A stretch of DNA of 64,000 nt from the NCBI GenBank assembly GCA_964016885.1, contig OZ024740.1, positions 379,068,001 to 379,132,000 on the forward strand. The letters are read 5' to 3'. Both the position numbers and the translations under genes were made by a program. This document shows positions 4,321 to 57,874 of the stretch, piece after piece. Every line of letters begins with the position of its first letter. Positions within the stretch are counted from its first letter, which is position 1. Source of the stretch: Eledone cirrhosa (lineage: Eukaryota). Under the pieces are notes generated by a model. The model was not told the DNA's origin, did no database searches, and was given only the letters and a program-made list of their open reading frames with translations.

Positions 4321-4371
4321 AGCTTCCTGATGATTTCTCACGAATGAAACAGTTCTAGTCCTGTAGAAGCT
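4321..4371 (+). ncRNA. Type I hammerhead ribozyme motif, family A
   Basis: AGCTTC-CTGATGA-tTTCtcacGAAt-GAAA-CAG ttctagtc CTG-TA-GAAGCT. Stem I is 6 bp, stem III 4 bp, GUA triplet with predicted cut after 4365. First stem II pair is U-U (non-canonical). Followed by (TA)n. Confidence 0.7.
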
Positions 4372-5054
4372 CTTCTATATATATATATATATATATATAT
4401 ATATATATATATATATATATATATATATGAACGTTGTATGCTAACACAATATCCTAAAATACAAATACATTGAGCGAGCTAATAGTTCCATAACGGCAGA
4501 GTGTGTTGTATAGATACAAACATGCCTAAAAGATACACTCATCAGTTAAGCATGTGATAAGGAATAATACGACTGCTATTTACCATTTTGTCAGCCATTG
4601 ACCTGAAGAGACTTTCCAGCACATAGAAGATAAACTCAAGAATCTGTGGAATCAAATATCCAGTGTGGTTCTGCATCGGTAGCAAAACATTCAAAGGAAA
4701 AATAATAATTACGAATAAATAAAAAATGAATGAAACTGCCCTATGGAAGGGAAACAGGTTCAGGTTCTTTATAAAGTAAGACAACATTCCATGTGCTGTT
4801 AGGATTTTTTTAATACTCAATTTCGCTTATTTGAAGAAAACAGTTTTCAAAATATTATTCAATATTAATTAATTATTGAACTTGGAATCAACTGTATAAT
4901 GAAGTACAGTAGTAAATTATAAATGATACAAAATATAATAGATATATAATTTCAGGAATTTCTTTTCCTTCAATTAACAACATACACATAATAAATGTAG
5001 TAACATAAGACTTGTAGATGCATGATAAAGGACCTCGATTTTGAGACCTATTCC

Positions 5055-5416
5055 TAATAATTGTTTCTATTTTTGACACAAGGCTAGCAATTACCCCAGT
5101 ACATTACTGGTACTTAATTTTATCGACCCCGGGATTTGAACTCAGAACGCAAAGGGCCATAACAATGCTGCAAAGCATGGTGTCTGACGCTATACCGATA
5201 CTGCTAATCCACCGCCTTTATTCCTAATAATTGTTTCTACTTTTGGCACAAGGCCAGCAATTATCCCAGTGCATCACTGGTACTTTATTTTATCGACCCC
5301 GTAAGGATGAAAGGCAAAGTTAACCTCGGCGGGATTTGAACTCAGAATGGCAAGGGCCGTAACTCTATGCATCAAAGCATGGCGTCCGACCCTCTACCGA
5401 TACTGCCAATCCACCA
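5055..5416 (-). mobile_element. Two tandem family S SINEs (about 5055-5216, internally deleted; about 5226-5416)
   Basis: Both match family S; TATTCCTAATAA at 5049-5060 and 5219-5230 flanks the first copy. Confidence 0.9.
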
Positions 5417-7660
5417 ATGCCATAATCTCCTTGCCACACGTGATTTGGGCTACTAAATACGTTAAACCTCTGTATGACTTGAGAAATACAATAACCAATT
5501 AAACTAAACATTTTGACCCAGTCAGTAATATAACCTTCATTATTATTCGGTAATTACCACACATTATAGGCAAAGGGAACTAATACATTCTAAACAAAAC
5601 CCTTCTAATTAAATCATTGACCACACATTAGGTACACGGAAAGTAAAGCTTAGAGAACTCTTTTCAACAGCCAAACTGAATATTGATTAATTTTAATGTT
5701 CTGACTATTGTTTTTGTTATAATGCATTATCGTCACGGGTTATATCTTATAGCTACTTTTTAGTATTGATCATAGAAATGAGAAATCATTTCGAAGAGAT
5801 TCAACCGTATTTTCATTGATCAATTTCATTTCTGGCTTTATATTCAACATTTTTACTGTCTTTTTTTTTCAGTTTGAAGATCAATGGATCAACTGATATA
5901 ATTTCCCCTTCACATCACAGACCTATTTACACGCACAAACCCCTCAATACAAACACGCAACTATAGTCATCAACCTATTCTCTGTGAACATAACTGCCTA
6001 TCTTGTAACATTTTATCCTTCCAACAAATAATGAATGAATGAATGAATAATCCAGTCAACCACTCAGCCTGTTCGTCTGTGTGTCTGTTTGTCTGTGGCT
6101 TCTCTTCGTCTCAATATGTAAACGCATATAACACACATACGCATATATATATGCATGAAAATTAAATGACATCAACACACACACGCACACACGCACACAA
6201 ATACACATATATATACATACATATGTTTTGACTAGTTGTAGTTATTCAGTTGTGACCTTGAAGGGGCATACACAAGAACACACACATAGTATAATTAGAT
6301 AATATAATAATTCATTAGACACCATAATATATTCAATATTGTTTTGAATTCCTCTGACTGAATTTTTAGAAATTCCCCTCTAATTACATTTGTTAATTTA
6401 CTACTGCTACTGTAAAATCTGATTATTTTTATAAAAAGTCAATGACTAGGTTGATTTCACTTGATTTTGTTGATATATTCTAAACGATGATAGTTAAGGA
6501 ATTATTGCTCATTCATTTGAAATTGTTAAATGAACCAATTTTCTAGGTACCAATTTTGTATAATATGTATATGTATATAAATATGTATATAAATTGTATG
6601 TATAATATGTTTTCTTCCAGCTTATATTGATCAGAAAAATATTGTTTTGATAAAATATTTTCAATAACTTCTTCAAAGGTAGAAAACCATAGAGATTATT
6701 TAGCTGCTAGCCAATTAAAGAAGTTCCCAATATGATTTGTTTTGTTCCATTTATCTCGCTAATGTCTATGAGAAAGTCATAAACATTACCAACACCAGTC
6801 AGCACAATGGAATTGTGATCTTATGCCTAAGTAAGAAATGAATAACATTTTTAGATGGAGAACGGCATAGAACAATGTATAGGATTTCTACGAACCCTAT
6901 ATTAAAGTTCTCTGTTGGTCGCTGGTCGAAGGAAATTCACGTCACTTATGTCTCTAATACACTTGGAACAACACATTGAAGACAACGTGTCTCATTGTCT
7001 CCTCAGTGATATATCTATGGCTCTGTAGAAAATCATTAATAACATTACATATCTTTTATGGCTTTTAAATGTAAGAGAATCATTGAAAACTCATGAAAGT
7101 CGTCTGATTAATTTTCTTTAGTCATAAATACATCGTTTCTCTTTTTCAAATGAATATTATTAATCATTGAAACTAATAATTACTTATTCTAACTTATATT
7201 TATTTCTATTACATCTATGTCTTCTAGTGAGCAAATCCTATCATTTTGCTTATCATTTAAGTAATTTATCTTCTCTGTATAATTAAGTCAATTCGATTCA
7301 ATTAATACAAACCCTTACACTTTATATTCTACTGATATTAAGAAATACAAATCCGGCGTTGAAATTAAAATTTGTCAATCTTTTATAACTGGTTGATCAA
7401 CATTAAACTATTAAATTTTTAATTTGGATTTCTTTAAGTTTTATCTCATTTGTTCTTTGTGCATATTACTTCATACACATGCGAGGAATTACAGTATCGT
7501 TTTGATTCAACAAAATGCTTTAAAAAAATTGCTACGAATTACAGATATTATTAGTTAGCTTTATTCCTTAGATTGAATATAAATTAAATGTCTTACCTTT
7601 ATAAAAGGCAAACATTTACAGGAGTTAGGCAAATATAAACTGAATAGATTCCAGTGTATA

Positions 7661-56236: not shown

Positions 56237-56368
56237 AATAGCTTTCACCGTATTTTTGAGTATTGACGTACATGTACGTCAATACTCATCTTTTTCCATT
56301 TATCTGAGGGTTCTAAACCCCATTATCAGGCTAAAGTCCCTTTAGTCAAAAATACGGTGGAAGCTATT
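56237..56368. repeat. Nested inverted repeats: 23-bp outer pair plus a perfect 32-nt palindrome (56257-56288)
   Basis: AATAGCTTTCACCGTATTTTTGA / TCAAAAATACGGTGGAAGCTATT; TGAGTATTGACGTACATGTACGTCAATACTCA. Confidence 0.88.
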
Positions 56369-56946
56369 CTATTTTCTAATTTCAAACCTGCTCACTGTTT
56401 CAAAACATACTTGCCATATATATATATATATATATATATATATAGTAATAATAATAAATTTGAAGACAAACTTTAATCTGTTATTTTAATATATATATAT
56501 ATATATATATATATATTTGGCGGTCATTCGATGCGTGAAGGGACAGATTAGCAGACACGAAAATTAACTGCGGTAAGAAAGATTTCTTATATCAAAGTTT
56601 AATGGGCTTCCACTGACGATTTATAAGTGCCCACCTAATTGTATTCTTACATGAAAATATATTAGGCTTCTACATAAACTGGAAATATTCTCCCAACTTG
56701 TAGAATACTTATAATGAAACAATTGTTTGGAAAGAGAGATATATTTTAATTTTAATTATATCTCATATAAAATAATACAACTGGCTTTCCACAAAATATA
56801 TATAGTTAGCACCCCAGACACTAAATTGGGTTTATACTAACGTATAACCTAATGTTTGTTGAGTGAGATGGTTACCAGTCGGAGTTTAGCGTAAAGCTTT
56901 CTCTATTATTGTATTAATATTATATATATATAGAGAGAGAAATGGC

Positions 56947-56991
56947 CTCTACAGGACTAGAACTGTTTCATTCCAAGGAAATCATCAGGAA
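56947..56991 (-). ncRNA. Type I hammerhead motif, family A, within a fold-back (56948-57014)
   Basis: Minus strand: TTC-CTGATGA-tTTCcttgGAAt-GAAA-CAGttctagtcCTG-TA-GAG; stem I only 3 bp. Confidence 0.6.
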
Positions 56992-57874
56992 TGAAACAGT
57001 TCTAGTCCTGTAGAAACCATTTCTATATTTCATATATATATATATGTGTGTGTGTGTGTGTGTGTGTGTGTGTGTGTGTGTGTGTGTGTGTGTGTGTGTG
57101 TGTGTGTGTGTGTGTGTGTGTGTGTGTGTGTGTGCGTGCGTGTGTGTGCGCGTGTGTGTGTGTTGAAATATTCTTTGGAATAGAGGTCTTATAGTTTCAA
57201 CTCCCCGGCTGGTCGTTAAAGGCAATTCTACTTTAGAACAATGCTATCTCTATGACACGTTACTTATAATATTTTCTCAATAAATGAAGGACTTCATAAC
57301 AGCACGAATCTGTTCGAAATGATACTTCACAGTTTCAGGAAGCTGTATGAATAACTAGAATTTATTCATATAAGATTGATTTAATTATCATTGATCTGAT
57401 CGCTTTTTTCTTTCTTCTTCCATACCATTTCGTATTCTTTCTTTATATAACATTATAGTTTAAGCTTTAGGAAACACACTGAAGCCGTTAAAAATTTATA
57501 TAATTATATATTTTTATGTTATATGTTGTATAAATGACGCACGCAAACAAGCATATTTAGACCCACCCACTCACACGTACTCTTACTAATAATAAACAAC
57601 AACAGCAACAACAACAAAGTATTTATTACAGATAATGCAAGATAAACGTGATTCTATAACATGCTTAATCAATCAAATGAACATAAGAAGAAAATTTGAA
57701 AGAAAATTTCATTATAACCTTATACGGCTGTTCTGTAAAACTCTTTTATTGTTTTCTTTTATAATAAAATGGGTTTGCAAAGACAGACAAAACGGGCTTA
57801 AATAAAAAAAATCATGAGAGTTAAAAACAAAAATCGATTAAAATGTATTCTTGAATCTTTCAGAAGACTTCTAA

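What the first reader, a model, noticed from the sequence alone, without database searches (positions are those of the whole stretch)
4321..57014. Family A: a tiny hammerhead cassette repeated four times beside (TA)n, with stems that vary but still pair
Seen: copies at 4321-4371 (+), 34712-34758 (-), 56094-56130 (+, stem III deleted) and 56947-56991 (-). Core CTGATGA/GAAA/GTA is invariant. Loop II varies (TCAC, TAAA, CTTG) while TTC/GAA pairing holds. Stem I is AGCTTC/GAAGCT in one copy and ATTC/GAAT in another. All copies have a U-U pair closing stem II, and the three undeleted copies have a true 4-bp stem III with an 8-nt loop, unlike minimal PLE hammerheads. Established: PLEs and retrozymes carry type I hammerheads. 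Inference: a non-autonomous, TA-targeting ribozyme retroelement with a variant hammerhead.
Basis: partly seen in the sequence, partly recalled or inferred. Interest (0 to 1): 0.75.

Follow-up and report, generated by a model that had tools for sequence, protein, structure and literature searches.

The report
Capped hammerhead stubs of Penelope retrotransposon
The four tiny ribozyme-like repeats are short copies of the end repeat of a complete Penelope-type jumping gene with intact copies in this genome; most such stubs likely arise when its reverse transcriptase copies only the capped start of the element's own messenger RNA.

Summary
The four copies are real, but they are not a separate non-autonomous ribozyme element. 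They are 5'-short insertions of the pseudo-LTR of an autonomous Hydra-clade Penelope-like element (713-aa RT plus GIY-YIG protein). The genome holds at least 16,998 exact motif copies and at least 32 long open ORFs. The U·U pair, the ACAG/CUGU stem III, the GUA site and (TA)n targeting are already published for Hydra-clade elements. Only stem I covaries; stems II and III are invariant. Less ordinary: 64 of 97 sampled copies stop within the hammerhead, with a sharp edge at the first base of stem I. A TATA box lies 29-30 nt upstream in four subfamilies. An untemplated G precedes that base in 59 of 100 and 29 of 43 A/T-flanked copies, against 6 of 83 at a control position. The mRNA therefore likely starts, capped, at stem I, and the stubs are likely run-off cDNAs from two internal start sites (+22, +91). 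Loop III is 8 nt with a central palindrome. Self-cleavage is untested. The scan noted capped Penelope stubs before in another genome (e1-8639352).

The parts
4171..4380 (+). Copy 1: 5'-truncated 3' end (pLTR) of the PLE, subfamily A2, ending about 13-15 nt past the cleavage site in (TA)n
   Evidence: BLAST to L006, 89.6% over 211 nt; same upstream sequence and loop II as ORF-linked L082
4292..4299 (+). TATA-like box (CATAAATA here, TATAAATA in most copies), 29 nt before stem I; inferred Pol II promoter
   Evidence: spacing 29-30 nt in four subfamilies with diverged spacers
4321..4371 (+). Complete type I hammerhead motif; 4321 is the inferred transcription start; predicted cleavage after 4365
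   Evidence: start inferred
4376..4428 (.). (TA)n target of copy 1
34694..34758 (-). Copy 2: 65-nt stub of the youngest subfamily A1, from inside stem I to +22, with (TA)n on both sides
56093..56212 (+). Copy 3: stub with an 11-nt deletion in stem/loop III, running to +88 (long tail, the ORF's 5' leader)
56938..56992 (-). Copy 4, arm 1 (A3-like): whole core, stem I cut to 3 bp
56989..57029 (+).

Best explanation
The cassettes are short insertions of the pseudo-LTR of an autonomous Hydra-clade Penelope-like retrotransposon, and the tiny ones are likely run-off copies of the capped 5' leader of its messenger RNA. Shown: the full element is hammerhead, leader, 713-aa RT/GIY-YIG ORF, 1.8-3 kb microsatellite-like 3' UTR, about 500 nt unique 3' end with a TATA box, hammerhead, (TA)n. 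Inferred: Pol II starts at the first base of stem I, 29-30 nt below the TATA box, and the RNA is capped. The protein nicks (TA)n DNA and starts reverse transcription inside the RNA at +22 (or about +15) and +91 past the cleavage site, one site per target strand. On the 5' pLTR of the mRNA it runs off after about 67 or 136 nt and often copies the cap as an extra G; two such cDNAs join head to head or to the target by microhomology. On the downstream pLTR the same start sites give long and full-length copies. The template is uncleaved RNA, because insertions cross the cleavage site. The hammerhead is likely functional in source elements, probably slow and dimer- or protein-assisted; the stubs have no promoter and are likely dead.
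For: Full elements L032 and L084-L087, ORFs 98.6-99.0% identical. At least 32 of 150 scored ORF matches lie in open frames of 729+ codons (counted by eye). 25 of the 30 best ORF loci have the hammerhead at the fixed place upstream. Hydra motifs are present and conserved in 96 aligned proteins. The model (pLDDT 93) has TERT as best fold match. 3' ends of 97 copies: 44 at +13..+22, 44 at +86..+94, 3 into the ORF, 6 other. 29 of 33 inverted pairs have one long and one short arm, none two alike among those classed. 5' ends: 44 of 97 at 39-46 nt before the cleavage site, 20 inside the core, 0 at 52-64. TATA spacing 30 in 44 of 50 A1 and 29 in 18 of 19 A4 copies with a box. Extra G: 79 of the first 100 of 2,000 non-C copies; 59 of 100 with A/T flanks; 29 of 43 in A3, where fold-back predicts A/T; control 6 of 83; Fisher p 3e-14 and 2e-12. 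Stem I position 4: A-U 8,185, C-G 2,367, any 10,936.
Against: No RNA evidence for the start, the cap or cleavage. Many G junctions in inverted pairs can also be read as partner-arm or microhomology letters: only 9 of 19 G cases were unambiguous, and 11 of the 59 may be partner-derived. A few copies begin 1-6 nt upstream of the inferred start (4 at -46, L032 at -48 to -51, L066/L088 at -47), so the start is not a single base. The only PLE promoter mapped in the papers I read is TATA-less and internal (PMC2377424, passages). The hammerhead fold is no more stable than shuffles (z 0.11 for copy 1) and is not the minimum-energy fold in A1, A3 or A4. Covariation counts reflect two or three inherited events, not thousands. 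How ORF copies regain the upstream TATA box (22 of 25 have the upstream pLTR) is not explained here.
Confidence: 0.87

Rival explanations
1. Same autonomous PLE, but the stubs are ordinary 5' truncations: RT stalls or folds back at the hammerhead in a long or circular RNA, and the extra G comes from fold-back on stem I or from untemplated addition.
For: In A1 and A4 a G before stem I would pair with C at +7. L172 is a true fold-back junction. 20 of 97 ends lie inside the core. Palindromic ends (AAGCTT) drive many A4 junctions, 18 overlapping pairs in the first 100 rows.
Against: A3 has A/T at +7 yet G in 29 of 43. Only 3 of 19 G junctions continue with the fold-back letters. G is rare at the control position (6 of 83). 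Conserved TATA spacing is not predicted. The fold is weak.
Confidence: 0.09
2. A separate non-autonomous SINE-like or retrozyme element: a short hammerhead RNA with its own life cycle (self-cleavage, circular RNA), mobilised in trans.
For: Stubs far outnumber ORFs. Solo pLTRs with a TATA box, such as copy 1, could make short capped RNAs that yield more stubs. One contig set shows a 77-nt back-joint across the hammerhead.
Against: Stub sequences follow the ORF-linked subfamilies. Ends are not at the cleavage site. No head-to-tail arrays: among 268 loci and stretches only 5 same-strand neighbours within 1 kb, separated by TA runs or partial tandems, and the 77-nt joint was not found. Stubs lack the promoter.
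Confidence: 0.03
3. The hammerhead motif is vestigial and is kept only as promoter or protein-binding sequence.
For: Weak fold; insertions use uncleaved RNA; in Poseidon_Ac, ribozyme mutants did not affect insertion in vitro (PMC11167929).
Against: Across subfamilies about 75% identical in the ORF, only N7 varies in the core, loop II varies freely and stem I has two compensatory changes. This rival concerns the ribozyme only and does not exclude the best explanation.
Confidence: 0.12

Closest known systems
Hydra-clade EN+ Penelope-like elements (Craig et al. 2021, PMC8557442; Hydra-1_Obim, Penelope-n_HM, Penelope-1_NV, Penelope-1_SK)
   Same: Single ORF with C-terminal GIY-YIG, RW[K/R], DKT, CxCX5C, CxxC and CxH motifs; (TA)n target; pLTR hammerhead with U·U closing stem II (HM families) and ACAG/CUGU stem III with GUA (NV, SK); inverted 5'-truncated copies and a tail.
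   Different: 4.8-6.0 kb unit in A1 (3.8-4.6 kb in A4) against 'generally <3 kb', owing to a microsatellite-like 3' UTR; loop III is 8 nt against 1-3 nt in the rows seen; tail about 69 nt against 30-40; Hydra-1_Obim has a different hammerhead (seen in the supplement, compared by eye only).
Poseidon_Ac of Anolis (Frangieh et al. 2024, PMC11167929)
   Same: Two internal RT start sites that define the tail; AT-rich target cut on both strands; uncleaved RNA as template.
   Different: Other clade; its ORF starts inside the hammerhead; the parts read (1-2 of 4) report no transcription start or cap G.
Minimal PLE hammerheads (Cervera and de la Pena 2014, PMC4209133)
   Same: Type I, in pLTRs, mostly found as solitary motifs, some as opposite-strand pairs; palindromic helix III; low predicted monomer stability.
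   Different: Here helix II is short (3 bp plus U·U) and helix III can close as a 4-bp hairpin as well as form a homoduplex.
Metazoan non-LTR retrozymes (PMC7229834; bioRxiv 10.64898/2026.07.22.740005)
   Same: Type I hammerhead, PLE-derived, no coding capacity in the stubs.
   Different: [quoted passage not shown]
Untemplated 5' G of full-length L1 and SVA insertions (PMC3287187, passages)
   Same: Extra G at the 5' junction, attributed to copying of the m7G cap.
   Different: There it marks rare full-length copies; here it marks the shortest and commonest ones.

Membership tests
EN+ Penelope-like element | Single ORF with telomerase-like RT and GIY-YIG endonuclease | tested here: met
   713-aa ORF with YRDD and YIG; best fold match TERT, E 4e-9; Pfam GIY-YIG only weak, E 0.019, below cut-off, and no RT family hit
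EN+ Penelope-like element | pLTRs in partial tandem, inverted 5'-truncated copies, optional tail | tested here: met
EN+ Penelope-like element | Hammerhead motif in the pLTR | tested here: met
   25 of 30 best ORF loci
Hydra clade | RWK and DKT motifs, no GxKF/Y, CxCX5C linker, CxxC and CxH around the conserved E and N | tested here: met
   RWR38 (K in 70 of 96 aligned), DKT116, CxCX5C566, CxxC666, CxH694, no GxKF against section 11 of PMC8557442
Hydra clade | Insertion into (TA)n | tested here: met
   TA run within 200 nt downstream in 92 of 97 copies
Hydra clade | Generally shorter than 3 kb (typical, not diagnostic) | tested here: not met
   units of 3.8-6.0 kb in 10 elements
Hydra clade | RT phylogeny with named Hydra families | not tested
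   named reference proteins were seen only in a paper supplement and were not used in computation
Type I hammerhead ribozyme | Core CUGANGA / GAAA / UH with three stems | tested here: met
Type I hammerhead ribozyme | Match to an Rfam hammerhead model | tested here: not met
Type I hammerhead ribozyme | Covariation in stems | tested here: inconclusive
   two compensatory pairs in stem I, none in II or III; few independent events
Type I hammerhead ribozyme | Mg2+-dependent self-cleavage | not testable with these tools
   needs in vitro assay
Non-LTR retrozyme | Head-to-tail tandem units each with a hammerhead | tested here: not met
   no arrays among 268 loci and stretches
Non-LTR retrozyme | Unit-length linear or circular RNA | not testable with these tools
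   needs RNA data

The most novel reading that the evidence does not exclude
The mRNA of this PLE begins with its own hammerhead, so self-cleavage would cut off the capped first 45 nt: a ribozyme decapping switch. The palindrome in loop III (CUAG, extended to ACUAGU in A4) would pair two mRNAs, like a retroviral dimerisation signal, both arming the ribozymes and handing two templates to a dimeric RT. That would explain why head-to-head insertions carry two overlapping copies of the leader, one from each start site, and why solitary hammerheads fill animal genomes.
Probability: 0.2. Interest if true: 0.72.

Novelty: new member of a known kind. Interest (0 to 1): 0.42.

Why it matters
The family itself is an ordinary, young and abundant PLE. 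The junction statistics matter more: they give a base-level, testable place for the transcription start of a PLE and a simple origin for the solitary minimal hammerheads that have been described as probable truncated PLEs. They support in vivo the two internal RT start sites seen in vitro for Poseidon_Ac. With many near-identical intact ORFs and a 67-136-nt natural product, the element is a compact system for testing what the PLE hammerhead is for. It also carries 2-3 kb of TA/TG repeat in its 3' UTR, so it spreads its own target sequence.

Tried and rejected
Rfam: no hammerhead family match. PDB sequence search: nothing significant. Folding z-scores not significant for any of 7 stretches. First fuzzy scan timed out and was redone. 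One search used a wrong spacer length and was redone. over-extended 3' ends through TA matching and was replaced. Splicing at the CAG before ATTC was considered and rejected: stub junctions share no upstream exon. Fold-back as the source of the G was rejected as the main cause. Retrozyme arrays not found. Sequencing runs: no RNA holder listed; two contig sets were laid and cannot show starts, strand or level. Coding role for the 45 open codons before the ATG was not followed. Luense et al. 2017 (PMC5785218) is not held; I saw it only as cited in passages of PMC6765202, so hammerhead variants like this one may be described there. Repbase and Dfam could not be searched.
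Full report
Observation. The four motifs are present as described. A type I descriptor finds them and one more site in the window; 100 locally shuffled windows give a mean of 0.02 sites. In the window's genome (3.0 Gb) the exact 41-nt pattern with loop II free has 16,998 matches and the reversed control none. Several details need correction. Copy 1 is homologous to other copies from 4171. 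Copy 3 continues 88 nt past the cleavage site. Copy 4 is one arm of a head-to-head pair. The ATTC starts of copies 2-4 are truncation junctions, not a stem variant. No Rfam hammerhead model matches (none in the 150 of 249 rows shown).

What it belongs to. Longer copies extend upstream. L032 holds a whole element: hammerhead, 758 open codons (ATG at codon 46, 713 aa), about 3 kb of TA/TG repeat, about 500 nt of unique sequence, hammerhead, (TA)n. L084-L087 have the same plan with ORFs 98.6-99.0% identical to L032. A search with the first 151 aa scored 150 of 13,206 candidates; by eye 32 are full-length matches at 95% or more in open frames of 729+ codons. Of the 30 best loci, 25 have the hammerhead at the fixed place upstream, and 22 of these also have the upstream pLTR. 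The protein has RWR, DKT, YRDD, CxCX5C, YIG, CxxC and CxH and lacks GxKF; these positions are conserved in an alignment with 95 of the 120 listed homologues. They are the marks of the Hydra clade (PMC8557442, section 11). The model has pLDDT 93 and TERT as best fold match. Pfam support is weak. The listed homologues are 38-54% identical, so this family has no close relative among the 7,992 candidates scored.

Subfamilies. A1 (AGATTC/GAATCT; youngest; window copy 2). A2 (AGCTTC/GAAGCT, loop TCAC; copies 1 and probably 3; ORF-linked in L082). A3 (GGCTTC/GAAGCC; copy 4 is nearest to it; ORF-linked in L079). A4 (CUGAAGA core, loop III with ACUAGU; ORF about 75% identical to A1).

The hammerhead. 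At stem I position 4, 8,185 copies have A-U and 2,367 C-G of 10,936 with any pair; position 6 changes from A-U to G-C in A3. Stem II never varies and stem III shows no pair change in a 10-row alignment. These are two or three inherited events. Only N7 varies in the core. The U·U pair closing stem II, the ACAG/CTGT stem III and the GUA site are in published Hydra hammerheads (supplement S2 rows). The 8-nt loop III differs from the 1-3-nt loops in the rows I saw, but it has a central palindrome: the stem III hairpin is -1.1 to -1.4 kcal/mol and the homoduplex -12.8 to -15.2, which fits the dimer model of PLE hammerheads (PMC4209133, parts 1-2 of 4; PMC6765202, passages). The monomer fold is not more stable than shuffles. 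Cleavage is untested.

Ends of insertions. I sampled 97 A1 copies chosen only by 21 nt around the cleavage site, from the first 36 Mb of C1 (18,374 matches genome-wide); both arms of inverted pairs count separately. 3' ends: 44 at +13..+22, 44 at +86..+94, 3 into the ORF, 6 between; 92 have a TA run within 200 nt. Of 33 inverted pairs, 29 have one long and one short arm and 4 could not be classed. This matches the two internal RT start sites and uncleaved template shown in vitro for Poseidon_Ac (PMC11167929, parts 1-2 of 4). 5' ends, in nt before the cleavage site: 20 at 9-38, 44 at 39-46, 4 at 47 (three are an upstream sequence variant, one an inverted junction), 1 at 51, 0 at 52-64, 28 longer. 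Position 45 is the first base of stem I.

Promoter and cap. A TATA box lies 30 nt before that base in 44 of 50 A1 copies that have a box, 29 nt in 18 of 19 A4, 29-30 in 3 of 5 A2 and 30 in 2 of 3 A3, while the spacer diverges. Intact copies have C before stem I. Among copies without that C, G stands there in 79 of the first 100 of 2,000, including six head-to-head pairs with G on both arms. With six A/T letters in front, G is 59 of the first 100 of 221; at a control position six bases further in it is 6 of 83. In A3, where fold-back on stem I would give A or T, G is 29 of 43. In A4 the first 100 of 726 give G 44, T 2, A 54, of which 36 are palindromic joints. These tallies were made by eye from the listings; Fisher p is 3e-14 and 2e-12. 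Against: many G junctions in inverted pairs are also readable as partner-arm letters (9 of 19 unambiguous), 11 of the 59 may be partner-derived, and a few copies start 1-6 nt further upstream. An untemplated G is attributed to cap copying in L1 and SVA (PMC3287187, passages).

Mechanism. Shown: anatomy, end positions, TATA spacing, extra G. Inferred: Pol II start at stem I, capping, RT starts at +22 and +91, run-off to 67- and 136-nt cDNAs, joining by microhomology. From established PLE work: endonuclease nicking of AT-rich DNA and target priming. Open: whether and when the ribozyme cuts, and how full copies regain the upstream promoter. If the start is right, cleavage would remove the cap, so the ribozyme would act against translation or template use and not define the inserted unit.

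Comparison and novelty. It is a new family of a known clade and fails the retrozyme test (no arrays among 268 loci and stretches; definitions from PMC7229834 passages and part 1 of 5 of bioRxiv 10.64898/2026.07.22.740005). Promoters in pLTRs are known: TATA-less and internal in D. virilis (PMC2377424, passages), putative TATA plus Inr in A. vaga (PMC3846280, passages). I found no paper reporting cap-derived G or run-off stubs in PLEs in searches (listings only; most subscription papers, Luense 2017, Repbase and Dfam were out of reach). An Octopus vulgaris repeat paper does not mention hammerheads (PMC13282606, passages). An earlier unreviewed note of this scan reached the same capped-stub reading in another genome (e1-8639352); I had written the idea down and did not check their data.

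Verdict. Real feature, wrong category: new member of a known kind, with a well-supported and testable mechanistic detail. Interest 0.42.

Noticed in passing
window 28560-29090 (-): 3' fragment of a second, divergent Hydra-like PLE (31% identity over 96 aa to P0001's endonuclease), interrupted by a SINE, with a looser hammerhead-like motif starting at 28606.
   Followed up: partly
window, about 18 places, e.g. 1496-1619, 5224-5348, 11326-11447, 28677-28798, 50493-50815, 57875-57994: An abundant repeat of about 120 nt, 78-96% identical to an insertion in L015; it resembles an octopod SINE (recalled, not tested). With the AT content and microsatellite load, this suggests a cephalopod host (inference).
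   Followed up: no
L014 and L022/L036 (upstream of the hammerhead), L019, L037:327-1367: Other PLE families with different hammerhead-like motifs or GIY-YIG/RT ORFs are nested in or beside this element's microsatellite UTR.
   Followed up: no
L032:2350-5300, L084-L087: The TA/TG block in the 3' UTR is inherited with the element: 30-70 shared complex 16-mers, nearly all collinear, between A1 copies, against 1 with an A4 copy; its length varies from 1.8 to 3.0 kb.
   Followed up: partly
L084:788-864, run X1: Contigs with a joint going back 77 nt across the hammerhead: a possible short head-to-tail duplication. Not found in the 268 loci held.
   Followed up: partly
L032:7604-7738 (-): The frame is open for 45 codons from just past the cleavage site to the first ATG in A1.
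   Followed up: no
window 34575-34679: A near-perfect GC-rich palindrome of about 105 nt, 15 nt from copy 2; a similar sequence flanks L020.
   Followed up: no
window 61173-61805 (+), 47039-47548 (-): Fragments that read like LINE proteins (C-terminal zinc-finger region; RTE-like region); names recalled.
   Followed up: no
18 pairs in the first 100 rows: A4 stubs are often joined head to head through the 6-nt palindrome AAGCTT at the start of stem I.
   Followed up: partly
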